64,000 bases of DNA, taken from positions 256,001 to 320,000 of the forward strand of contig CAWDXE010000001.1 of NCBI GenBank assembly GCA_963806185.1, read 5' to 3'. The translations under genes and the position numbers were made by a program. Under the pieces are notes generated by a model, which saw only the letters and a list, made by a program, of their open reading frames with translations, was not told the DNA's origin and did not search any database. Every line of letters starts with the position of its first letter. Positions within the stretch are counted from its first letter, which is position 1. Below are positions 51,930 to 64,000 of this stretch, in pieces. This DNA is from an uncultured candidate division Zixibacteria bacterium (GTDB taxonomy: Bacteria; Zixibacteria; MSB-5A5; GN15; FEB-12).

Positions 51930-53753
51930 CTATTTGAAATAGTATGGCGTCTTCGCCGCCCACGGGCTGTCTTTGTAGAGCTTGTGCAACCGTTTGAACG
52001 CCGCCTTGCTTCTGGCAATGGTCTCATCATCGGCGTACTGTTTCCATGCGAATTGTGTCGACCTCGGCCCGGAGCGCCCGCCCAGGACGATATAGTGCAG
52101 CGCTTTTGCTTCAGCATCACTTCTGATTCTGGATCGTCGTGATATCTCGGCAGCCGAGACGAAAAGGGTCATTGGCGGCGTATACGATGCAACACGGTCA
52201 CGAAATGTCCTGCAAGGCTCGCACTTCGGCAAATCTGACGACGGATCGTAAATACCGTGGAACATGTTATCGCTTCCGATGAAGCCAAAAGGATTGACTT
52301 GGTACTTGCCTAACAGTTCTCCCATGTCTACGAGAGCCTGAACGTCGCGGGGATTTGAGGCCAGTGTTGCGATAATTGTCTTCGCGGAGGACAGCGGCCA
52401 TACCTCGCTTCCTTCAAGAAGCTTCTCCAACGCCTTGAAGCGCCAAGATAGAGCGTAGCGCCGAGCCAATTCGGACACCAGTATATGCCGTCTGTTTCCC
52501 GAGATATCGCTTCTCTCAACACCGGTTTCCAGATCTCCATCCGATAACCCGGCTGTGGCAAATGCTGACAGGTTTCGCTCGCTGACTATTGGTGACCGGT
52601 CAGTGTAAAGCCACAGTCCGTCACCACTGTTAAGTTTCAAGCACGCCATCTCAACTTCGACGGCATCTTCCGGCCTCACCTTGTGCATCTGCTCCAACAC
52701 GTTCGATGCCAATTGATGGTTCTGGATTTTTTCAAAGGCACGCACTCTGAGTAATTCCGTACTTAGCCATCGCACCGTATCCACCAAGGGTGTCTCAGGA
52801 GTCTTGTCCAGGAGCTCCTGATATCGCTCTAACCGGTACAGTCCAAGCTCTCGAACATACTGAAAAAGGCCCGGATAATTCGCGAAATCTCTCTCGCGTG
52901 ATTCCAGTGCCGTCATGTCTTGAAGGGTCGGTCTGTCATCTCCCAATAGCGAAAAAGCAATGAGCATGGGTGAGTCTGCGACAAAATCTATCTCCCCATG
53001 AAAGTAATTTTCAAATTCTTCGATTTCATTCCTTTTCACCGATCGACCCATAATTAGCGTCCCGGTTGCAGGGAACTGCTCCAATATTCTTTGCTTTAGT
53101 TCCGAGTCGAGAAGAGCTTGCCTGCCTGATAGGAAATAGATTCTGCGACGGAGATTGCGGGCCGAATTTGCGTATAGTCCGTCCGGAAACTCCGACATAT
53201 ACCGACGGTATGAAGAATCCGCCAACATCAGCATATCCTGATTTACGGTCTTGACCGGACTGCTATAGCCGTTCCAGTCATTCTGCGCGATAATCAGTTG
53301 GCATCGACCAATCATGTAAGCCGACGCTTCATGCACCCACGAGTAATTGCCTTCTCTTTTTAGGTTGTCCGAAAACACGGCACTCAAGTTCTCCGTGCCG
53401 CCCAACCGTTCAAATATTGCGAGAGCCCCTTGGTAATCCGCCTCCTGAAAACGCTTTGCTCCGAGTTCATAGTATGTGAAAAGCGGCAGCTCGTCCCGTC
53501 TGCTTGCCTCGCGTGCGATGGAGTCACGATTGGCCATAATGCTCGATTCAAGAGTTACGTATTGCCGCAGGACCAACTCAAACATCCACCGTCTTCCATA
53601 TCTCTCGTACGCATAGTTTGGGGCCCTATACTCCGGGTCCACATACGATGGCCGGGAGAAATACGGAGATGGTGACATACTACAGGCACGCGTACTCGCA
53701 CCCGCCAACAGCACCACCCCTACACAAAGGCCAATAATCGTTTTGATCTTCAT
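51930..53753 (-). CDS. Secreted alpha-helical (TPR-like) protein, partner of DUF3142
   Basis: Signal peptide; WVHEASAYMIGR, FPDGLYANSA; C-terminus FKRLHKLYKDSPWAAKTPYYF; ATGA overlap with the upstream gene. Confidence 0.65.
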   Translation of the reverse strand: MKIKTIIGLCVGVVLLAGASTRACSMSPSPYFSRPSYVDPEYRAPNYAYERYGRRWMFELVLRQYVTLESSIMANRDSIAREASRRDELPLFTYYELGAKRFQEADYQGALAIFERLGGTENLSAVFSDNLKREGNYSWVHEASAYMIGRCQLIIAQNDWNGYSSPVKTVNQDMLMLADSSYRRYMSEFPDGLYANSARNLRRRIYFLSGRQALLDSELKQRILEQFPATGTLIMGRSVKRNEIEEFENYFHGEIDFVADSPMLIAFSLLGDDRPTLQDMTALESRERDFANYPGLFQYVRELGLYRLERYQELLDKTPETPLVDTVRWLSTELLRVRAFEKIQNHQLASNVLEQMHKVRPEDAVEVEMACLKLNSGDGLWLYTDRSPIVSERNLSAFATAGLSDGDLETGVERSDISGNRRHILVSELARRYALSWRFKALEKLLEGSEVWPLSSAKTIIATLASNPRDVQALVDMGELLGKYQVNPFGFIGSDNMFHGIYDPSSDLPKCEPCRTFRDRVASYTPPMTLFVSAAEISRRSRIRSDAEAKALHYIVLGGRSGPRSTQFAWKQYADDETIARSKAAFKRLHKLYKDSPWAAKTPYYFK

Positions 53754-54469
53754 ATGCGTTTCTGGATGAAGTAGATGATCCCCCGGAAATTCTGATTAGC
53801 CTCGAGTTCGACGACCGACTTTGGCGCCTCTGACCCGGACAGCAACCCAATGCGAAACGGCATCGAGTATTCGCCCAATACTCTGATACTTGATTCGATT
53901 TCAGGAAGTGGCCGCCTTCCCCGATACAATTGAAAGACGATCTCATCCGCCGACTCTGAAATCGACCGCATCGCTTCCTTATCCCCGCTCGTCGCCCAAT
54001 CCATCAGCCCCGTGACGCTCAGTCCGTACCGCGCCGCCAGCTTCTCTCTGATATCCTGCATGAACCGGCCGTAGGTCGAGAGCTTTGATGTGGGACAATC
54101 GAAATCGAGCTGGATCCCTGAAACCGTCACGGGATGGCGCTGCCACTGGGCCACACTATGCTCGAAAACACCCACGACCGTTTGCGCGTCCGGCAATTGT
54201 CCGTCCAGCCGATAGACCAGGTACAGTCGGTCGCTCTTGACCGGATGCGGATACAAGCCCAAACGCTCATACGTGGAGGCGCCTTCCTTTGTGATTATGC
54301 GCCCCTGAAAGACATACAATTCGGCACTCGACGGCGCATCTTCAGGAGTTATTCCCGCCCACAGCCAGTACGAAACCGGAATCTCCGCCTTCTCCGTCTC
54401 CCCATAAAGTGAGATTCCAATTATCACGAGCAGCAATAGAGGAATGGCTCTGCCAAATCGACTGTGCAT
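53750..54469 (-). CDS. DUF3142 family protein
   Basis: YWLWAG, GIQLDFDCPTSKL, LSVTGLMDW, DEIVFQLYRGR. Confidence 0.75.
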   Translation of the reverse strand: MHSRFGRAIPLLLLVIIGISLYGETEKAEIPVSYWLWAGITPEDAPSSAELYVFQGRIITKEGASTYERLGLYPHPVKSDRLYLVYRLDGQLPDAQTVVGVFEHSVAQWQRHPVTVSGIQLDFDCPTSKLSTYGRFMQDIREKLAARYGLSVTGLMDWATSGDKEAMRSISESADEIVFQLYRGRRPLPEIESSIRVLGEYSMPFRIGLLSGSEAPKSVVELEANQNFRGIIYFIQKRI

Positions 54470-54700
54470 ACTGGGATTCTCGGTTCCCGGGAAACTCCCC
54501 GCTCTTCTTGATATCGTAACCGGTTTTCCGTCGCCCACCCGGCCTGCTCTCCCAATATCGTAGCTTATTGAATCTACGGACGCAAGCGGTGATTAGGAAC
54601 AGGCGAGTCCCCGGGTTCTTTCCTCGCTGAAGCAGCCTTGACACACTCGCCAAATGTGTATGATTTAGGCCTACTAATCGCAACGAACAACATGACCCTG

Positions 54701-54888: not shown

Positions 54889-55743
54889 TCACAGCTGACT
54901 GGCGCTGAAGGTGTCGCCCTGGCTAATGTCGCCGGATTTGTACCCCTTGACGAACCATCGAACGCGTTGGTCCGACGTACCGTGCGTGAAGGCGTCGGGG
55001 ACGACATACCCTTGCGATTGTCTCATTATCCGGTCGTCGCCAACCGCCCCGGCGGCGTTGATCCCTTCCTCGATATCTCCTTGCTCGAGAAGATTCGCCG
55101 TGCGCTCCGCGTGATGAGCCCAGACACCGGCAAGGAAATCGGCCTGAAGTTCCAGTCGGACTGAGAGACGGTTGTACTCGGTTTCGCTCATGCGGTCTCG
55201 CTCGGCCATTACCTGATCCATGATGCCCATCATATTCTGGACGTGGTGACCGACCTCGTGGGCGATGACGTAGGCCAGGGCGAAGTCGCCGCTCGCACCG
55301 AGTTGAGCCTGCATTTCTTTGAAGAAGCTGAGGTCGATGTAGACTTTTTCGTCGCCCGGGCAATAGAACGGCCCCGAGGAAGCACCGGCGACACCGCAGG
55401 CTGATGATATCTGGTCCGAGAAGAGAACCAGTTTCGGCTCGCGATAGGCCTGACCGCTCTGCTGAAAGACGCGGTTCCAGACATCCTCGGTCTCGGCCAG
55501 AATGACGCCGACAAACTCGCCTTCCTGCTGTTCTTCCGCACTGAGCGGCTGGTTCACGTCGGCGGACGTCTCCATGCCCGGCTGCTGCAGTGATTGCATC
55601 ACCTGATTCGGGTCACCGCCGAGAATCAGGAAGAGAACGGCGATGATGATCCCGCCCACTCCTCCGCCAACCGCCAATTGTTTGCCGCCGATTCCGCGTC
55701 GATCTTCCACGTTATCGCTTGTCCGTCGACCTTGCCATTTCAT
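54889..55743 (-). CDS. Neutral zinc metallopeptidase (YpfJ family)
   Basis: MKWQGRRTSDNVEDRRG, GPFYCP, AHEVGHHVQ, ELQADFLAG, FTHGTSDQR. Confidence 0.92.
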   Translation of the reverse strand: MKWQGRRTSDNVEDRRGIGGKQLAVGGGVGGIIIAVLFLILGGDPNQVMQSLQQPGMETSADVNQPLSAEEQQEGEFVGVILAETEDVWNRVFQQSGQAYREPKLVLFSDQISSACGVAGASSGPFYCPGDEKVYIDLSFFKEMQAQLGASGDFALAYVIAHEVGHHVQNMMGIMDQVMAERDRMSETEYNRLSVRLELQADFLAGVWAHHAERTANLLEQGDIEEGINAAGAVGDDRIMRQSQGYVVPDAFTHGTSDQRVRWFVKGYKSGDISQGDTFSASQL

Positions 55744-55864
55744 GTCTGATTCCTTTCCGGAAGCGGCCGAAGCGGTGAGGAGGCCGCAGATCGCCGTCCC
55801 AGTCCGACCAAGCCGTTTGATGAAAATATCATAATGTGTGGGGGGTGGAATGTCAAATCACTCC

Positions 55865-56260: not shown

Positions 56261-57007
56261 TCAACTAATCTGTATCAAATTGAAGGGCAGCATCGCCCAC
56301 ATTGCCCAAAATGCCCAGAGACAAACCACAATCAATGCCGCCCGGCCCTTGGATACGCCGGCCACGACTGACAAACCCAGCGCCACGAGAATCGCCATCC
56401 AAATACTGAAAATGTCAAGCCGGTCCAGACCTCTGAACAGAGCTGTACTCTGCAACTCGACGGGCAGGAACACCGCTGGTCCTAAATGGACCTGATAACT
56501 CTCTTTGGCGACAATTAGTCCGGCCTTTATCAGTTGCTCTGGGACCGTGACAAGGAACACGAAACTCGTCATCGAAAAGAGCTTGCCGAACGTGGCAGTA
56601 TTGGAACCGATCTGTACTGCAAGCCAGAGGAGCGCAGCCAAGGACAGGACTTTGGCCGCATGAAGCGATGACAAGAGAACGGTGCCCATCGCCAATTGTA
56701 AAGAAGATACTCCGTGGGTTCGCTGAGCCTCGATATTATCAATGCGGCGCGACACTTCCTCAGCACTCAAAGTCGGATCGCTGCTGATACGAGCCTTCAT
56801 ATCCTCCATGCGATAGCGGCTCGTCACCGCCTCATAGCCGACCGAGACTAGCGCACAAACAATGATCGGAATGAGCCATCGACGTGTCCGGGCCAACGTC
56901 TGAAAGGCTTGCCGTGGTGCGGTTAATACGTTGAACATCGTCGTCAGGTAATCGTCGACCGACGTGGCTGTCGGTTCCACCGGCTCAACACTCATTGCAG
57001 GTTCCAT
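56261..57007 (-). CDS. Yip1 family membrane protein
   Basis: VLTAPRQAFQTL...WLIP; LDIFSIW...GLSVVAGVSKGRA. Confidence 0.75.
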   Translation of the reverse strand: MEPAMSVEPVEPTATSVDDYLTTMFNVLTAPRQAFQTLARTRRWLIPIIVCALVSVGYEAVTSRYRMEDMKARISSDPTLSAEEVSRRIDNIEAQRTHGVSSLQLAMGTVLLSSLHAAKVLSLAALLWLAVQIGSNTATFGKLFSMTSFVFLVTVPEQLIKAGLIVAKESYQVHLGPAVFLPVELQSTALFRGLDRLDIFSIWMAILVALGLSVVAGVSKGRAALIVVCLWAFWAMWAMLPFNLIQIS

Positions 57008-57029
57008 TTCCCATCCCTCCATTAGTTCA

Positions 57030-57833
57030 TCAGTACTGAGCGAGTGATCCCGTTCGGCGGGATTGATTGAATCCCGCGCGGACAGCCAACAGGCCTAGCG
57101 GTAATGTTACGAGCGAAATAACTCCGAGTATAGCCAACTGCGGCGCTATCGTGCCTGTCGATGCATTCTTGATGAGAGCCAGGCGAAGCGCGTCAAGCGC
57201 ATAGGTCGTGGGGAGCAGCATCGAGATCGGTTTGAGGTACGCCGGAAGGTATTCGACCGGAAAGAGCACGCCCGAAAACAGAGTGGTTAGAGCGGTGAAT
57301 GCCCACGAAATCGGGTCGCCCACCTTGGTGACGATTATAACTCCGGCGCTCATAAGCCCAATGCCGGAAAGCGACGTGACCGTCAGGACAATCGCCGCCA
57401 GAGCAGCAGGCAGATTGATGTCCATCGGAATGCCGAATACCAGAATGACAACGGTCAAGAGCAAGGCGACATTTAAGAACGCCTGAACGAAATTCATCAA
57501 CCCGGAATAGAGCAGGATAAGCTCCAATCGAGTATTCGATAACAGGAGAAACTCAAGGGTGCCCATCTGCTGTTCTGAACGAATAGTGCTTGAGAATGAG
57601 CTCAGCGAGACACCGAGGAAACCTGAGAATGCCGTGCCGATAATCAGGTACGCCAACAAGTTCCCGCCATACTGGGACAGTGCCGGGAAGCTGTTGCCAT
57701 CGTTTAAGAATTTCCCCATGAACGTAAACTGGAGCAAACCGACAAAGCTACCGACAATTCCGAGCGCCAGCGCAGTCTTGTAACTAATAAGGGTGATGAA
57801 CCCACGCTTAATGAATAGCCATGCTCGATACAT
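57030..57833 (-). CDS. ABC-2 type exporter permease
   Basis: EQQMGTLEFLLLS, FSGVLFPVEYLP, LPTTYALDALR. Confidence 0.9.
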   Translation of the reverse strand: MYRAWLFIKRGFITLISYKTALALGIVGSFVGLLQFTFMGKFLNDGNSFPALSQYGGNLLAYLIIGTAFSGFLGVSLSSFSSTIRSEQQMGTLEFLLLSNTRLELILLYSGLMNFVQAFLNVALLLTVVILVFGIPMDINLPAALAAIVLTVTSLSGIGLMSAGVIIVTKVGDPISWAFTALTTLFSGVLFPVEYLPAYLKPISMLLPTTYALDALRLALIKNASTGTIAPQLAILGVISLVTLPLGLLAVRAGFNQSRRTGSLAQY

Positions 57834-57837
57834 TGCA

Positions 57838-58776
57838 TCACCCCGCTAACTGAATGAACACGTCTTCAAGCGACGCAGTATAGGTATTGGTGCGAACCAC
57901 TTCCAGACCGGAGGCAGATACCTCAGCCAGCACAGCGGCCATATCGAAGGAGCCGTTGTACGAAATGGTGATTCGATTGCCAGTCGCGGTAAGCGCCTGG
58001 AACGCCGATACCGCGCGTATGCGCTCGACCAACCGGCTCACACGGTTATCACCGGCAACATCACTACCTTCAAAGTCAAACTCGATCCGCTTCTTATTGC
58101 TGAACTTGTGAAAATCCGCCAGTGCACCTACCTTGAGCAGTTTCCCCTCCTTGAGAAAGCCAATGCGGTCAGAAAGGCGTTCTGCTTCGGTCATATCGTG
58201 GGTGGTGAGCAAGATAGTCTTCCCCTGCCGCTTCTGATCGGCCAGAATTTCGCGGATGGTGCGGGCCGACGCCGGGTCGATACCGCTGTTTGGTTCGTCG
58301 AGGAGGAGCACTTTGGGATCGTGCAAGAGGGCCCTGGCCAGTGCCAGACGCTTTTTCATCCCCGTCGAGTAGCGCATATATTGCAGCCGTGCGTCCTTAT
58401 CCAGCCCTACCAAAGCGAGCAAAGTCTGAATTCGCGTTTTAAGTGCGTGCCGGGGGATACTGTACAGACCACCGAAGAACTCAAGATTCTGTGCCCCGGA
58501 GAGACGGTAATAGAAGCTCCGTTCCTCGCCAAGCACCAGGCCGATACAGGCGCGGGCTTGATACTGGTGGGTGTGCATATCGAAACCGCAGACTCTCACG
58601 GTTCTCGACTGAGGGATGATAAGGCCGGAGATGATGCGAAGCAGCGTAGTCTTTCCGGCCCCGTTGGGACCAAGGAGGGTGAATATTTCGCCGCCCCGGA
58701 CATTTAGGCTGATCTCTGCCAGCGCTGGCAGAGATTTCCCGGAGAAGCTATAACCAATGTCGGTCATTGACAGCAT
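57838..58776 (-). CDS. ABC exporter ATP-binding protein
   Basis: GPNGAGKTT, YSTGMKKR, LLLDEP, TTH. Confidence 0.92.
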   Translation of the reverse strand: MLSMTDIGYSFSGKSLPALAEISLNVRGGEIFTLLGPNGAGKTTLLRIISGLIIPQSRTVRVCGFDMHTHQYQARACIGLVLGEERSFYYRLSGAQNLEFFGGLYSIPRHALKTRIQTLLALVGLDKDARLQYMRYSTGMKKRLALARALLHDPKVLLLDEPNSGIDPASARTIREILADQKRQGKTILLTTHDMTEAERLSDRIGFLKEGKLLKVGALADFHKFSNKKRIEFDFEGSDVAGDNRVSRLVERIRAVSAFQALTATGNRITISYNGSFDMAAVLAEVSASGLEVVRTNTYTASLEDVFIQLAG

Positions 58777-58778
58777 GG

Positions 58779-59495
58779 CTATTTTTGCTCCGCGCGCACA
58801 CTCTTTGATGCCCATCTGTGCTGAATGAGAAGATTTGCGACTCCATAGAGAATTGCCGGCGTGAGACACAAGAACAGCGTCAGATTGTCGTTAACGTCTG
58901 TGCGCAAATGGAAGAAGATCAGGGCCGGAAGGACAACAGTGGATCGACAATACACGTACCCAAAGAACACTTCTACCGGAAGAAACTTTGCAATTGCTTC
59001 AGGCGGAATATCCTGCGTCAGAAGTATCGCCAATGCACTCACGATGACGATTGCCAGTTTGCCTACAAAGCTCTGTCCATAGCGCGGCACAAGAACTCCG
59101 ATGAGACCCGCTCGGAGGAACAACTCCTGCGAAACAGCCGAGGTCGCAAGAATGCCCGTCAGTCGCCAATCTGTTGGGAAGCGCTGAACGTCAAAGATCA
59201 AAGCAACCAGAGTGAGCAGGGCGATGGCCAACCATATCGGGCGTTGACCTCGATGACTCACAAAACCGAAGAGGCTGGGGGCGGTATCTCTTTGGTATGC
59301 CAGGATAACCGCACAAAGGAAGAAGAGTGAGTAAACGCCAATCGCCAAGGCCGCGCTGATGTCTTGGTTGCCAAAGATTCCGCCTGATCGGATCAGCCGA
59401 GCCTCACACAGTGAGGCAACGAAAAAGACCATTGCCAAGCCAGCAACAAGTCGTTGGGTCGGCTGCCATGTACTGAGTTTGTTATCCATGTTCAT
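58779..59495 (-). CDS. CPBP/Abi (CAAX protease)-like membrane protein, degenerate
   Basis: SQELFLRAGLI (EExxxR-like), FFGYVYCRS...PALIFFH; multiple TM segments; AGGAG RBS. Confidence 0.55.
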   Translation of the reverse strand: MNMDNKLSTWQPTQRLVAGLAMVFFVASLCEARLIRSGGIFGNQDISAALAIGVYSLFFLCAVILAYQRDTAPSLFGFVSHRGQRPIWLAIALLTLVALIFDVQRFPTDWRLTGILATSAVSQELFLRAGLIGVLVPRYGQSFVGKLAIVIVSALAILLTQDIPPEAIAKFLPVEVFFGYVYCRSTVVLPALIFFHLRTDVNDNLTLFLCLTPAILYGVANLLIQHRWASKSVRAEQK

Positions 59496-59618: not shown

Positions 59619-60305
59619 CTAATGTTCCGCCTGACGAATCAGCCCGGCGAATACAACGTAAATCACGCCCCCCGCGAGAAGCATCTGAATACTAGCTTGA
59701 CTCATCGATGGATTCAACAGTCGCACAGCGTCGCAGGTAAAAGACGCCAAAACACTACCGGTAATCGGGACAAATGATGAACTCAAGCAGTTGGATGCAA
59801 CATCTCCCATTATCGTCGCGTGCGGGTCAGGGTGGACCAGGGCACAAATGCACCCCGTAATAACCACAGAGAGTACAGGGACCGCCGCTCCGTTGCCCCA
59901 TCTTTCAATGATCAACCTCATGCAAAAGGCCCTAAGAATGACTGAGCTCATGAACAGAAGGCACAGTCCAACGATGATATGAGAGCTTGATGAATGCGGC
60001 GATGACTCTTTGCCCACTGAGGAAAGAGCTACTACTGTGATAATAATAGGGATACTGTACCATACTTTTCCCGAAAGAAGAAGACCCCAGTCCGAAGCAC
60101 TACTCTGACGAGCCTTAACAGATCGATACGCATAAACCAGGAGCCCAACAGCCATGAGAACCAATCCCGCCAACAGCACATATTTGATCGCCGCTGAACC
60201 TACTTCGCCTTCTGGTGAAACAAATTGAGCGTGCGTGAAGCGTGCCAGCACGGCGAAGGCGACCATTGCGGCCACCGTCATAACGACAGAGACTCTGGAT
60301 GACAT
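59619..60305 (-). CDS. CPBP/Abi-like membrane protein, degenerate
   Basis: GGGAGG RBS before ATG 60305; DWGL, SSVILRAF, ICALVH, ITGSVLA in CPBP motif order. Confidence 0.5.
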   Translation of the reverse strand: MSSRVSVVMTVAAMVAFAVLARFTHAQFVSPEGEVGSAAIKYVLLAGLVLMAVGLLVYAYRSVKARQSSASDWGLLLSGKVWYSIPIIITVVALSSVGKESSPHSSSSHIIVGLCLLFMSSVILRAFCMRLIIERWGNGAAVPVLSVVITGCICALVHPDPHATIMGDVASNCLSSSFVPITGSVLASFTCDAVRLLNPSMSQASIQMLLAGGVIYVVFAGLIRQAEH

Positions 60306-60335
60306 GAGATCCTCCCGATGATGTTGATTATTGCT

Positions 60336-60364
60336 AACATACTCTGCCTTTGTTATCACGTCAA
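60336..60364 (-). promoter_or_regulatory. sigma70-like internal promoter for the membrane/ABC genes
   Basis: Minus strand TTGACG-17 nt-TATGTT. Confidence 0.5.
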
Positions 60365-60383
60365 GTGTTTCCCCAACGGGACC

Positions 60384-60415
60384 TGCAGGGGAGATGATCA
60401 TGTCACTCCCCTGCA
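60384..60415. terminator. Stem-loop downstream of the precursor peptide genes
   Basis: TGCAGGGGAG-12 nt-CTCCCCTGCA perfect 10-bp stem; no clear U tract. Confidence 0.55.
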
Positions 60416-60462
60416 TCTCTTGCTAGTGGAAAAAGCGGGAGGCGATTTTGCGCCGGGTCCAC

Positions 60463-60585
60463 TCAATCGCAGACAGGGCCGGTCCGTTTCCCTTCACAGT
60501 ATATCTTGCAGTATTGAACGCATAGAAGCACACAAGGCCACAGTCCGAGCTGTGTGTCTTCAATTGGTTCCACAAACCACTTCAT
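60463..60585 (-). CDS. Putative RiPP precursor peptide 3 (40 aa)
   Basis: Hand translation MKWFVEPIEDTQLGLWPCVLLCVQYCKIYCEGKRTGPVCD; GGAAGGA RBS; below the ORF-track cutoff. Confidence 0.8.
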   Translation of the reverse strand: MKWFVEPIEDTQLGLWPCVLLCVQYCKIYCEGKRTGPVCD

Positions 60586-60611
60586 GATGTCATCCTTCCT
60601 AGCTGGCATGA

Positions 60612-60782
60612 TCAAGTCGAATGTACGTTGCAGTACTTCTCACAGCCAACCCCTCCATTCAGAGCCCAGGTGGCGAGGAAGAATACGAAACCCAGCCAGC
60701 CGCACAATATCATGCGATTCGACGGCTGAGTTACCGTTGAGTCTAATTCGTCGGCGCCAGTCGGTTCAACAACCCATTTCAT
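60612..60782 (-). CDS. Putative RiPP precursor peptide 2 (56 aa)
   Basis: MKWVVEPTGADELDSTVTQPSNRMILCGWLGFVFFLATWALNGGVGCEKYCNVHST; GGAGA RBS. Confidence 0.75.
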   Translation of the reverse strand: MKWVVEPTGADELDSTVTQPSNRMILCGWLGFVFFLATWALNGGVGCEKYCNVHST

Positions 60783-60842: not shown

Positions 60843-61022
60843 CTATGATATCAGTAGCAATCTGCAGAGCGTGCTCCTGTTTTCGCAGTAAACTGGGCAC
60901 GCTGTTCGGCAATAGCAACTCTTACTGCAGCAGCTGAATACGAAACAAAACATGCTTCCGCTACACCCTTCATCCAGTTCTGAGAACGACTGCAGTACTT
61001 CCGGGGTCACAAGCCATGTCAT
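60843..61022 (-). CDS. Putative RiPP precursor peptide 1 (59 aa, 9 Cys)
   Basis: MTWLVTPEVLQSFSELDEGCSGSMFCFVFSCCSKSCYCRTACPVYCENRSTLCRLLLIS; GGAGG RBS. Confidence 0.8.
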   Translation of the reverse strand: MTWLVTPEVLQSFSELDEGCSGSMFCFVFSCCSKSCYCRTACPVYCENRSTLCRLLLIS

Positions 61023-61098: not shown

Positions 61099-62468
61099 CT
61101 AGATTCGGGAACTCTCCTGCTGGGCGAGGCGCTTCAGTTCCAACATACTTGGAAGATTGTGGCGAAAGGATGTACACACGTTCTTGTGTGCGTCTTCCAG
61201 TTCATCAGAGTACAAGGACTTGTATGGGCACCCCCCCATGCACGAGGGCAGAAATGCACATTGCTCACAGCCCATGGGCTGTCCGAAAGCGGTCCATCCC
61301 ACCCATTTCACGTAGTTGTCGGTGAGAGCGATGCCGTCAGGTGTACATGTGCCCACCCGTTTATCTTGCTGGCCTACACTATTCCAACAAGTTTGCACAT
61401 CGCCGTTTGGTTCGATGACATATGATCCTTGTCTGACCGCGGAACATGGGCTGAGAATCCGCGACGGATAGTCCACTTCGGTGAAGCCATTTGCGAATGC
61501 TGCTCTGTAACCCTTCACTAAAAACCGGGCAAACTCCGGCGTATTCATACAACTCGAGCTTCCGCTCAAGCACGAACCGCCAAACTGAAGAACCTGTCCG
61601 AAGCCAATCGAAAAGTTCTTTCGTCGGTGCCAGCCCAGTTCTCTGAGTCGCCAAAAGTAGTCGTCCACGCATGACATGTTCCGCCGATCAACGTTCATTC
61701 GCAAGGAGATGTTGAGCAGTTCCTCATCTGCGATACGCATCAGATTCTCGACTATCTTGTCATAAGTTCCAGCGCCTGAAGTGAGAGGCCGACGCGCGTC
61801 ATTGATTTGTCGGGGGCCATCCAACGTTACTTGAAGGAATCGAACTTGTACCCTACGGACAAATTCCAACCCCTCTGGGTCAAGAAGGTAGCCATTGGTA
61901 ATCATGCCCGCGGAGTAACGAGCTTTCTTCTCACGGCAAATACGATCAAAATCGGTTGTCAGTCGCTCAATAATTGACCGTGCTAGCATCGGTTCACCGC
62001 CGTACCACGTCACCGACAAACAGCCTCTCTCTTCCACAAGTTTCTCACACAGATTGACGATATGCTGACAAATATCGTCCGGCATGGTTCTGGTCTGGAA
62101 CTCGGAAAGTGATTTCAGCGCAGTGTTCTCATAGCAATAATCACACGCAAAATTGCAGGCATACGTCGGGATAATTGTCAGTCCCAGTCCCTTCTGACCA
62201 AACCTCATGGCGTAGTGCGCCGCTCGAATCGCATCCAATTCATCCACATCGGCGGGGGTGATGAATCCACCCTTTCTTAGGTTCGCTACCAAGTCATCCT
62301 GCCCGTCGCCGTTTGACTTCTCCTCGTTCCATCAACGTCACAATACCGCCGGTAGCTCTCCTCATCCATCTCTGCCAGCCCGCAGGTCATGGCGTTGAAG
62401 GCCAGGCGTTTCCCGTTCTCTAGGTCCACAAAGTGATTGTACCGCGACGCCTTCACACGTTCAGCCAT
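61099..62468 (-). CDS. Radical SAM/SPASM peptide maturase with N-terminal RRE-like domain (one apparent frameshift near 62325)
   Basis: KASRYNHF...AFNAMTCGLAEM / LVANLRKGGFI; CNFACDYC; WYGGEP; SPASM C...C...CEQCAFLPSCMGGC...C; AGGAGG RBS. Confidence 0.9.
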
Positions 62469-62586: not shown

Positions 62587-62626
62587 TCGAAAGATCACCT
62601 GCGTTCAAGTCACGGTCACACAGTAA

Positions 62627-62641
62627 TCAAACGACATGCCG
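62627..62641 (-). promoter_or_regulatory. Possible sigma54 promoter (variant -12)
   Basis: Minus strand CGGCATG-TCGT-TTGA; GA replaces the consensus GC. Confidence 0.45.
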
Positions 62642-62862: not shown

Positions 62863-64000
62863 TTAGAGATCGCCCTGCTTGAGACGATAACGGATCGTGC
62901 CTTCGCTGATGCCCAGTCGACGCGCAGCCTTGCTCTTATTCCCTCCGCACTCGGCCAGCACGGTCGCGAGCTGGACGTCGTCGGAGATGGCGAGTTCATC
63001 AACAAATGCGCCCGCCATACGAGACAGACTATAGCCTTGCATAACCCAGAGTCGCTTGATTGTGTTTTCAAGCTCGCGGACATTGCCCGGCCAGTCGTGG
63101 TGTCCGAGTGCCTGAACTAATGCGTCAAGCTCTGCGTCATGGTTTGAACAGCAGGCCGCTCCTTGCAAGAAGTGTCGTACCAGCAGTTCAACATCATCCA
63201 ACCGTTCGCGGAGTGGCGGCAACGTCAGCGTGGCCTGATTGAGCCGGTGATAGAGATCGGCCCTAAATTTTCCAGAGCGAGCGCATTCGCGCAGATCGGC
63301 GTTGGTCGCGACGATTAGGCGGAAGGCGACAGGCTGGTCCGTATCGTCGCCCACCCGGCGCACTCGCCGAGTCTCAAGAACTTCCAGAAGCTTGGCTTGC
63401 AGTTCTGGACTGGCCTCACCGATTTCATTGAGAAACAAGGTGCCGTTTTCGGCTTGCCTGATCAACCCTGGGCGGTCTCGTTCGGCTCCGGTGTAAGCCC
63501 CCTTCCGGTGACCGAACAGCTCTGATTCGATCATCGCGGCCGGCAACGTGGTCACATTCTGACTGACAAACGCGCCGGTACAGCCGGAATGCTCATAAAC
63601 ATAGCGAGCCAGCAGGTCCTTGCCGGTGCCGGTTTCCCCGGTAAGAAGCACTGTCATGTCAGTGGGTGCCAAGTTGCGAGCTAGTTCCAGAACAGACGAC
63701 ATGGTCTTGTTGGCGGTGATAATCTGCACCGGTGCAGAGCCGCTGGACGGCTTGACCGGCGGCATAGGCAAAGTCGGGCGATGCAGAGTCTGAAGCGCAA
63801 CCTTCACTTTGTCTATGTATGGTGTGACCTGTTCGGATTCAAAATACTCCTTCGCCAAGAAAAGCAGGGCAATGCTCTCGGCTGGCTCAAACACGCCGGA
63901 GCGAGCGGCCAGATAGCGCGTGACGGCCAGTTCGTAGCGAGACGAAATCTGATTGAACAGGTCGATGGCCCGCCGGAACCAATCGCGAGCCTTGTCCTGC
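62863..64000 (-). CDS. sigma54-dependent Fis-family activator with N-terminal TPR-like region (start outside the window)
   Basis: GETGTGKD, ESELFGHRKGAYTGA, FLNEIGE, FRADLYHRL, WPGNVREL, GNKSKAARRLGIS; frame open to the window edge. Confidence 0.9.
   Translation of the reverse strand, partial: QDKARDWFRRAIDLFNQISSRYELAVTRYLAARSGVFEPAESIALLFLAKEYFESEQVTPYIDKVKVALQTLHRPTLPMPPVKPSSGSAPVQIITANKTMSSVLELARNLAPTDMTVLLTGETGTGKDLLARYVYEHSGCTGAFVSQNVTTLPAAMIESELFGHRKGAYTGAERDRPGLIRQAENGTLFLNEIGEASPELQAKLLEVLETRRVRRVGDDTDQPVAFRLIVATNADLRECARSGKFRADLYHRLNQATLTLPPLRERLDDVELLVRHFLQGAACCSNHDAELDALVQALGHHDWPGNVRELENTIKRLWVMQGYSLSRMAGAFVDELAISDDVQLATVLAECGGNKSKAARRLGISEGTIRYRLKQGDL

What the first reader, a model, noticed from the sequence alone, without database searches (positions are those of the whole stretch)
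60463..60585. Hidden 40-aa precursor with Cys every fourth residue, missing from the ORF track
Hand translation gives MKWFVEPIEDTQLGLWPCVLLCVQYCKIYCEGKRTGPVCD: C-x3-C-x3-C-x3-C-x8-C with an RBS. Its first 7 residues match peptide 2 at 6 positions. Peptide 1 ends similarly (C-x3-C-x3-C-x6-C). Inference: the i+4 spacing puts the Cys on one helical face or forms consecutive small rings. Gene callers would probably miss this ORF.
Basis: seen in the sequence. Interest (0 to 1): 0.75.

Follow-up and report, generated by a model that had tools for sequence, protein, structure and literature searches.

The report
Hidden Zixibacteria thioether-peptide precursor gene
A 40-codon gene missing from public protein collections encodes the third of three small cysteine-rich peptides beside a radical-SAM enzyme gene; the enzyme likely staples them with sulfur-carbon rings into an exported product, and the conserved cluster fits no named family.

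Summary
The ORF is real, on the minus strand (60463-60585), with an RBS and C-x3-C-x3-C-x3-C-x8-C. It is absent from a 15-billion-protein collection that holds its neighbour. An orthologue keeps the same Cys pattern, with synonymous changes dominating. It is the third of three M-x-W-x-V-x-P peptides between an RRE-radical SAM-SPASM gene and two CPBP-like genes, an ABC exporter and a Yip1 gene. The layout recurs in relatives, mostly Zixibacteria (54 precursors, 53 with the leader). C-x3-C is the commonest spacing (81 of 253 gaps), but a run of four occurs in only 3 of 54.

The enzyme clade is unnamed: below the TIGR04463 and Clo7bot cut-offs, yet with near-identical active-site residues. CrpC (TIGR04463) makes short Cys-first thioether rings. 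Best reading: abutting four-residue thioether rings (Cys to i+3), then export. Chemistry, leader binding and expression are untested. The window's enzyme gene is frameshifted; one near-identical environmental contig restores the frame, so this is probably an assembly error. New variant of a known kind.

The parts
60463..60585 (-). Precursor peptide 3 (the finding), 40 aa: leader MKWFVEP, core with Cys18/22/26/30/39
   Evidence: orthologue and codon pattern; absent from protein collection
60593..60600 (-). Shine-Dalgarno-like AGGAAGGA, 7 nt before the ATG of peptide 3
   Evidence: sequence
60612..60782 (-). Precursor peptide 2, 56 aa: leader MKWVVEP, hydrophobic middle, C-terminal C-x3-C
   Evidence: same class second in most related loci; in protein collection
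60843..61022 (-). Precursor peptide 1, 59 aa: leader MTWLVTP, nine Cys
   Evidence: orthologue in L048 shares SCCSKSCYC
61099..62468 (-). RRE-radical SAM-SPASM maturase gene, split in the assembly by a frame change near 62319-62332
   Evidence: contig loose end; orthologue model and fold search
62626..62641 (-). Weak sigma-54 (-24/-12)-like site, 173 nt before the maturase start
   Evidence: weak here (25 of 200 shuffles reach it), stronger at a similar place in 9 of 15 relatives; consensus recalled
62863..63999 (-). Sigma-54-dependent activator (AAA+ and Fis HTH), runs off the window; the homologue in L040 has TPRs
59619..60416 (-). CPBP/Rce1-like membrane protein (start probably 60305), catalytic motifs degenerate
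   Evidence: no Rce1 Pfam hit on its own; aligns with Rce1-like neighbours of related loci
58779..59495 (-). Second CPBP/Rce1-like membrane protein, catalytic motifs degenerate
   Evidence: PF02517 21.8 bits against cut-off 22.4
57838..58869 (-). ABC exporter ATPase (DrrA-like)
57030..57833 (-). ABC-2 permease
56261..57022 (-). Yip1 / YknW-like membrane protein
   Evidence: PF04893 above cut-off; NF052650 79.6 bits, below cut-off 110

Best explanation
The ORF is a real, conserved gene for a 40-residue peptide that is likely a RiPP precursor, which the neighbouring radical SAM/SPASM enzyme is predicted to grip by its M-x-W-x-V-x-P leader and would cross-link with cysteine thioether rings before likely export.

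Steps: (1) Shown: gene, RBS, leader shared with two sister peptides, conserved operon. (2) Inferred: a sigma-54 activator drives one transcript from the maturase to Yip1. (3) Inferred: the W-x-V-x-P strand adds to the beta-sheet of the enzyme's N-terminal RRE. (4) Inferred from CrpC: a SAM-derived radical removes H from a side-chain (non-alpha) carbon of the residue three after each Cys, and the Cys sulfur bonds to it. Here that gives abutting rings C18-L21, C22-Y25, C26-Y29 and C30-K33. C39, one residue from the end, cannot be an i+3 donor. (5) Inferred: the leader is cut and the product leaves by the ABC-2 exporter, with the CPBP-like and Yip1 proteins acting in processing or self-protection. 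The product is most likely a multi-peptide antimicrobial or signal. The split in this genome's enzyme gene is probably an assembly error.
For: Gene reality.

Coupling to the enzyme: the genome-wide leader-plus-Cys scan gives 5 ORFs, all beside rSAM genes. Leader peptides follow the enzyme in 13 of 13 related loci analysed and 13 of 14 top loci. 53 of 54 precursors carry M-x-W-[ILVF]-[VIAMN]-x-P.

Enzyme type: best families TIGR04463 and TIGR04334. The orthologue model (pLDDT 94.9) has an N-terminal strands-then-helices domain, and its best structural match over 471 columns is the thioether-forming CteB. The seven SPASM Cys (283, 302, 342, 345, 351, 355, 373) have almost the spacing reported for CrpC. 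The six catalytic-proximity positions (PMC10288494 section 7; mapped through) read YYITWN here, FYVTWH / FYVVWD / YYVTWH in three TIGR04463 members and YYVTWN in a Clo7bot member.

CrpC: it forms -2 Da thioethers in CAVD, CAGM, CPLV and PCAGD motifs, Cys first, with data suggesting ranthionine links (PMC13692751 sections 8, 12, 14).

Register: at Cys+3, D/N 42 against 26.8, Y/H 39 against 23.4 and G/P 24 against 42.1 expected; nothing beyond |z| 2.0 at +4.

Frameshift: a 151-nt contig matching the window at 127 of 128 bases continues with two fewer bases and reads CDIVERG in the enzyme's frame, matching the orthologue's CELIERG without a gap.
Against: No member of this clade has been assayed. 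All 7 intact orthologues scanned score far below the TIGR04463 (320-374 against 525) and Clo7bot (312-352 against 600) cut-offs. The tree does not resolve this clade as sister to either. CrpC's own six residues were not visible (figure only), and the profile differs from CteB's FFTSHQ.

The +3 signal is confounded: in C-x3-C, +3 is also -1 of the next Cys, where Leu (z 7.4) and Y/H (z 4.6) are more strongly enriched. 120 cells were tested and the peptides are kin. 24 Cys have another Cys at +3. PapB accepts Cys-Xn-Asp with n=0-6, so spacing need not fix the register.

Both CPBP-like proteins here lack the full catalytic set (5 of 15 aligned have it), so no leader peptidase is identified. The frame rescue rests on one contig at depth 2. 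Only 1 of 18 genome loci tested shows a frame switch, this one, and two relatives (L038, L079) have broken enzyme genes.
Confidence: 0.55

Rival explanations
1. Same enzyme-substrate pair and thioether chemistry, but another topology: sulfur-to-alpha-carbon (sactionine) links, or longer or nested rings.
For: Cys spacing across the family is broad: 40 gaps of x4, 26 of x6 and 24 of x2 among 253. Peptide 2 types have a long hydrophobic segment between Cys groups. PapB tolerates 0-6 spacers. Some non-hairpin sactisynthases resemble ranthisynthases.
Against: In peptide 3 the Cys fill the core and only 10 residues follow C30, too few for a four-rung hairpin. CrpC showed no sactionine-type fragmentation.
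Confidence: 0.22
2. The Cys are not the enzyme's substrate. They line one face of a helix and bind metal or form disulfides, while the enzyme does other chemistry, such as C-C cross-links at aromatic residues or epimerisation.
For: Cys18/22/26/30 span 120 degrees of a helical wheel, and the model has a helix at 15-31. Y/H are enriched next to Cys. TigE and ChlB are among the close PDB matches (that they are not thioether-forming is recalled). Metal binding was suggested for modified CrpA.
Against: The helix model is weak (pLDDT 60.7, pTM 0.29). A four-Cys i+4 run is rare (3 of 54). The top fold match and the nearest tested family are thioether-forming. Cys is the one conserved core residue type.
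Confidence: 0.17
3. The peptide gene is real but the cluster is dead in this strain, because the maturase frameshift is genuine. This does not exclude the family-level mechanism.
For: The frame change is in the assembly. 17 of 18 genome loci tested show none. Broken maturases occur in L038 and L079. The sigma-54-like site here is weak.
Against: A contig from a near-identical population has the open frame. Both gene parts are otherwise free of stops and 76% and 55% identical to the orthologue. Two single-base differences and a substitution within 17 bases look like a local consensus error (inference).
Confidence: 0.2
4. Chance small ORF in an intergenic gap.
For: No Pfam or NCBIfam match; not in the protein collection.
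Against: Orthologue with a synonymous-biased codon pattern, RBS, shared leader, and third-position peptides in seven other loci.
Confidence: 0.02

Closest known systems
Crp system of Methanococcus voltae (CrpC, TIGR04463; PMC13692751)
   Same: RRE-radical SAM-SPASM layout, seven SPASM Cys of similar spacing, near-identical catalytic-proximity residues in TIGR04463 members, Cys-rich substrate encoded next door. It is the only tested enzyme found among the two best-matching families.
   Different: CrpA is a 29 kDa protein with a 17-residue repeat and C-X-X-Q/D motifs. Here there are three different 40-59 aa peptides with M-x-W-x-V-x-P leaders and often Tyr/His/Leu/Lys at i+3, plus exporter, CPBP-like, Yip1 and sigma-54 activator genes. 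The enzyme is below the family cut-off and in another clade.
Clo7bot system (TIGR04334 maturase, TIGR04333 peptide)
   Same: Similar HMM score, profile YYVTWN against YYITWN, tandem short Cys-rich peptides with a hydrophobic-x-x-P leader. Two sub-cut-off TIGR04333 matches start MKFILKP next to such an enzyme.
   Different: Enzyme 312-352 bits against cut-off 600. None of the window's peptides matches TIGR04333 even at E 10. The leader here has an invariant Trp3. The three peptides are unlike each other and lie downstream of the enzyme. No paper naming Clo7bot was found.
Ranthipeptides: PapA/PapB (freyrasin) and CteA/CteB (SCIFF)
   Same: Cys-first non-alpha thioether rings made by an RRE-rSAM-SPASM enzyme; CteB is the best structural match.
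   Different: PapB links Cys to Asp/Glu at i+4, a position held by the next Cys here. Family scores are low (NF047865 110 against 340; TIGR03974 83 against 425). CteB profile is FFTSHQ.
CXXX-repeat (TIGR04115) and Cys-every-fifth (CefB, NF038107) systems
   Same: Regularly spaced Cys in a precursor beside an rSAM/SPASM gene (precursor description taken from the family names; details recalled).
   Different: Enzyme scores 47.6 against 350 and 195 against 600 (intact orthologues at most 270 for CefB). The peptides match no NCBIfam model.
Sister Zixibacteria two-enzyme cassettes (M-x-[YF]-[LI]-[IV]-D-P...P-[LM]-Y-G and MKFIE.P peptides; unnamed)
   Same: Related maturases and the same leader shape; one such locus lies on contig C6 of this genome.
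   Different: Separate clades, a second rSAM gene, peptides upstream of the enzyme, Tyr/Phe instead of Trp at position 3.

Membership tests
RiPP precursor of an RRE-rSAM/SPASM cluster (general) | Short conserved ORF with leader and core, next to the maturase in related genomes | tested here: met
RiPP precursor of an RRE-rSAM/SPASM cluster (general) | Maturase has CxxxCxxC, a SPASM domain and an N-terminal RRE-like domain | tested here: met
   PF04055 and TIGR04085 over cut-off; orthologue model aligns with CteB over 471 columns. The RRE label rests on secondary-structure order and that match.
RiPP precursor of an RRE-rSAM/SPASM cluster (general) | Leader binds the RRE | not tested
RiPP precursor of an RRE-rSAM/SPASM cluster (general) | Peptide is expressed and enzymatically modified | not testable with these tools
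   needs proteomics or co-expression
TIGR04463 (CrpC family) | Maturase reaches the curated cut-off of 525 bits | tested here: not met
   307 for the truncated window protein; 320-374 for 7 of 7 intact orthologues; true members score 535-626
TIGR04463 (CrpC family) | Substrate is a large Cys-rich protein | tested here: not met
   neighbours are 36-63 aa peptides
TIGR04463 (CrpC family) | Catalytic-proximity residues like family members (works-like test) | tested here: met
   YYITWN against FYVTWH, FYVVWD, YYVTWH; CrpC's own residues not seen
Clo7bot (TIGR04334/TIGR04333) | Maturase reaches 600 bits | tested here: not met
   312-352 for 7 of 7 intact orthologues; a true member scores 611
Clo7bot (TIGR04334/TIGR04333) | Peptide matches TIGR04333 (31 bits) | tested here: not met
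   no hit for the three peptides at E 10 (peptide 1 was given without its first Met); the genome's only match is elsewhere, 14.9 bits
PapA/PapB ranthipeptides | [quoted passage not shown] | tested here: not met
   peptide 3 has no C-x3-D/E; D/E not enriched at +4; 110-132 bits against 340
Ranthipeptides (class) | Sulfur-to-non-alpha-carbon thioether in the product | not testable with these tools
   inferred from CrpC only
CXXX-repeat system (TIGR04115) | Maturase reaches 350 bits | tested here: not met
   47.6 bits

The most novel reading that the evidence does not exclude
One enzyme turns three unlike peptides (a nine-Cys type, a membrane-helix type and this short type) into a three-component exported product. 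This peptide becomes a rigid chain of four abutting four-residue rings in which sulfur is joined to the side chains of Leu, Tyr, Tyr and Lys, including Cys-S to Tyr beta-carbon links: a residue-tolerant stapling chemistry from an uncultured phylum.
Probability: 0.2. Interest if true: 0.7.

Novelty: new variant of a known kind. Interest (0 to 1): 0.42.

Why it matters
It adds an unnamed, well-delimited RiPP family in uncultured Zixibacteria, with 54 natural precursor sequences and intact enzymes ready for E. coli co-expression. Some precursors, this one included, are missing from public protein sets, so genome mining undercounts them. If the enzyme links Cys to non-acidic residues at i+3 in tandem, it would widen known thioether chemistry beyond the Asp/Glu preference of PapB and be useful for peptide stapling. 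The kind of system (rSAM/SPASM plus Cys-rich precursors) is well known, so specialists would find it useful rather than surprising.

Tried and rejected
Plus-strand reading: has a stop. Pfam and NCBIfam scans of the three peptides: no family. The 11 related peptides were scanned only at E 1e-30, too strict to say anything.

Expression: no RNA holder listed, and the one RNA run laid gave no contig on the stretch; neither counts as evidence. No laid contig covered the peptide 3 gene itself.

Peptide model: too weak to use. The default tree run did not finish; the FastTree run was used, with no clade test. The leader DNA pattern gave 3 matches against 0.07 expected, but it was built from those three genes, so it is not independent. 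Sigma-70 promoter and terminator scans were at chance level. The Clo7bot peptide search in 401 genomes around G206 found no match over the cut-off.

Rows dropped before the counts: L045, L050 and L051 (contig ends at or within the enzyme), L079 (broken enzyme, no leader peptide found: a miss), L121 and L036 (duplicates). Two peptides were lost to the SD filter and added back. L213 had no peptide.

Literature: searches for Clo7bot / TIGR04334 / TIGR04463 / TIGR04333 / NF038107 / Cys-every-fifth (1 paper), FlmE / OhkG (none), and searches listed no paper describing this clade; most subscription journals are not in the library. PMC12703449 (passages) says nothing on FlmE/OhkG chemistry. Our-findings look-ups by place and by sequence were blank.

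Full report
Observation. AGGAAGGA sits 7 nt before the ATG. The matches to peptides 1 and 2 are as stated. In the 3.65 Mb genome this is the only one of 2566 SD-preceded 30-60 aa ATG starts with four Cys at i+4. A scan for M-x-[WFY]-x-[VI]-x-P ORFs with three or more Cys returns five ORFs: the three here and two beside a related rSAM gene on contig C6. The exact peptide is not among about 15 billion proteins, while peptide 2 from the same contig is, so it was indeed missed.

Locus. On the minus strand the order is: sigma-54 activator, radical SAM/SPASM gene, peptides 1-2-3, two CPBP/Rce1-like membrane genes, ABC ATPase, ABC-2 permease, Yip1/YknW-like gene. Named records holding close enzyme homologues are labelled Zixiibacteriota, uncultured Ignavibacteria or just bacterium, with one partial protein labelled Methanosarcinaceae. 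I infer that the window is from Zixibacteria.

Conservation. Close homologues of the enzyme (41-56% identity; 56 proteins, the query and the window's own included) carry downstream peptides with the same leader. These were found in 13 of 13 related loci analysed (dropped rows are listed under Tried and rejected) and in 13 of the 14 top-scoring loci among 200 other genomes of the phylum. The two sets overlap, and the family is patchy. A profile of 31 peptides found 23 proteins among 1.84 billion representatives, all 46-59 aa and all with the M-x-W leader; many are the query sequences themselves. The merged set has 54 precursors, 53 with M-x-W-[ILVF]-[VIAMN]-x-P. Loci often hold three positional types: Cys-rich, hydrophobic with a C-terminal C-x3-C or C-x3-V, and short. 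L048 has an orthologue of peptide 3 with the same length and Cys pattern. Of 27 codons compared, 16 encode the same residue and 9 of those differ synonymously; identity at codon positions 1/2/3 is 17/18/8 of 24. This is selection on the peptide.

Cys spacing. C-x3-C is the commonest gap (81 of 253; Cys at +4 seen 58 times against 27.8 in shuffles). A strict run of four occurs in only 3 of 54 precursors and a run of three in 16. Other third-position peptides mix x2 to x5 gaps. So the repeat unit matters, but the long perfect run is special to this peptide and its orthologue. With Cys positions fixed, position +3 is enriched in D/N (z 3.4) and Y/H (z 3.7) and depleted in G/P (z -3.3), and +4 shows nothing beyond |z| 2.0. 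This fits an acceptor at +3. It is confounded with a stronger preference just before Cys (Leu, z 7.4), and the sequences are related.

Enzyme. Best NCBIfam matches are TIGR04463 and TIGR04334 (Clo7bot), both far below cut-off in the window and in 7 of 7 intact orthologues. In a FastTree of 134 proteins the window's enzyme lies in a 45-row clade (support 99), apart from three TIGR04463 members and one Clo7bot member; the order among these groups is unresolved and no clade test was run. A model of the L048 orthologue (pLDDT 94.9) matches CteB best and TigE next. Using the six catalytic-proximity positions of PMC10288494 (abstract and section 7 read), mapped through the CteB alignment, the window reads YYITWN. 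TIGR04463 members read FYVTWH, FYVVWD and YYVTWH, the Clo7bot member YYVTWN, and CteB FFTSHQ. An extra conserved Cys pair before the SPASM domain (100 and 106 of 108 sequences) is shared with the Clo7bot member and two of three TIGR04463 members, so an open iron site on AuxI is not shown.

Tested relative. PMC13692751 (abstract, passages, sections 8, 12 and 14, supplement list, and a text search of supplement 1) shows that CrpC, a TIGR04463 enzyme, makes Cys-first thioethers in CAVD, CAGM, CPLV and PCAGD motifs, with data suggesting non-alpha links. Its six profile residues are in a figure I could not read, and the two spreadsheet supplements were not opened. PMC9413430 (passages) shows that PapB uses Cys-X3-Asp/Glu but tolerates 0-6 spacers.

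Mechanism. The most likely course is leader capture by the RRE, then radical thioether formation from each Cys to the residue three downstream. A Cys every fourth residue then gives four abutting rings (C18-L21, C22-Y25, C26-Y29, C30-K33), with C39 left over. Leader removal and ABC export would follow. All of these steps are inferred. CPBP and YknW-type proteins are linked to bacteriocin processing and immunity (recalled; the listing is consistent, papers not read). The two CPBP-like proteins here lack the full EE/H/H-N set (motif recalled) that 5 of 15 aligned proteins keep, so a protective or binding role fits better than proteolysis in this genome. A sigma-54-like site lies upstream of the enzyme in 9 of 15 relatives at 7 or fewer of 200 shuffles, and weakly here (25 of 200). 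I put gene reality at about 0.97, substrate of this enzyme at 0.9, thioether chemistry at 0.75 and the i+3 non-alpha version at 0.55.

The frameshift. The window's enzyme gene changes frame inside the RRE region. One 151-nt contig from run X1 matches 127 of 128 bases, then continues with two fewer bases and one substitution, reading CDIVERG in frame. The orthologue reads CELIERG at that place. An assembly error is the likelier cause. The support is one contig at depth 2, 17 of 18 genome loci tested show no such switch, and two relatives have broken enzymes.

Comparison and novelty. It works like the CrpC and ranthipeptide systems but fails the membership tests for TIGR04463, Clo7bot, PapB, CefB and TIGR04115. 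The literature searches listed no description of this clade; the library lacks most subscription journals. Earlier AI notes describe sister Zixibacteria cassettes, mostly two-enzyme, with the same nearest family; they are leads only. Verdict: a real hidden precursor of an unnamed rSAM/SPASM RiPP family, new variant of a known kind, interest 0.42.

Noticed in passing
G000:C6, L033 4367-7711 (minus): Second RiPP-like locus in the same genome: two 41-aa MVFIIDP...PLYG peptides upstream of a sister-clade rSAM and a second rSAM (best TIGR03913 and TIGR04103, below cut-off). The same layout occurs in many relatives. The YG motif recalls splicease substrates (recalled).
   Followed up: partly
G000:C6, L034 5280-7639 (plus): A third related rSAM paired with another rSAM; no leader peptide was found by my pattern. 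An IS-like transposase and a near-copy of a 358-aa gene also present in L033 lie close by.
   Followed up: no
L040 6413-11372: Five precursors interleaved with four CPBP-like genes, two with intact and two with degenerate catalytic motifs, which suggests duplication of peptide-plus-CPBP modules.
   Followed up: partly
L038 9500-10400; L079 4971-5600: Broken maturase genes (stops, frame changes, truncation) in two relatives. L038 keeps two peptides; L079 keeps the exporter but no leader peptide was found.
   Followed up: partly
L049 6640-6786: A precursor of this family with six Cys all spaced x4 (every fifth residue), although the enzyme is not CefB.
   Followed up: no
window 61549-61572 (maturase C241, C248): Conserved extra C-x6-C pair between the radical SAM core and the SPASM domain, in 100 and 106 of 108 homologues; role unknown, could supply a fourth AuxI ligand.
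   Followed up: partly
window 54889-55743 (minus): YpfJ-type neutral zinc metallopeptidase gene (NF050010 over cut-off) just downstream of the cluster, with its own sigma-70-like site at 55856; a link to the cluster was not tested.
   Followed up: no
window 51930-54538 (minus): DUF3142 gene followed by a PA5441-like gene (below cut-off).
   Followed up: no
L231 1332-3052: Two near-identical MKFILKP Cys peptides upstream of a Clo7bot-like rSAM in genome G225, below the TIGR04333 cut-off.
   Followed up: no
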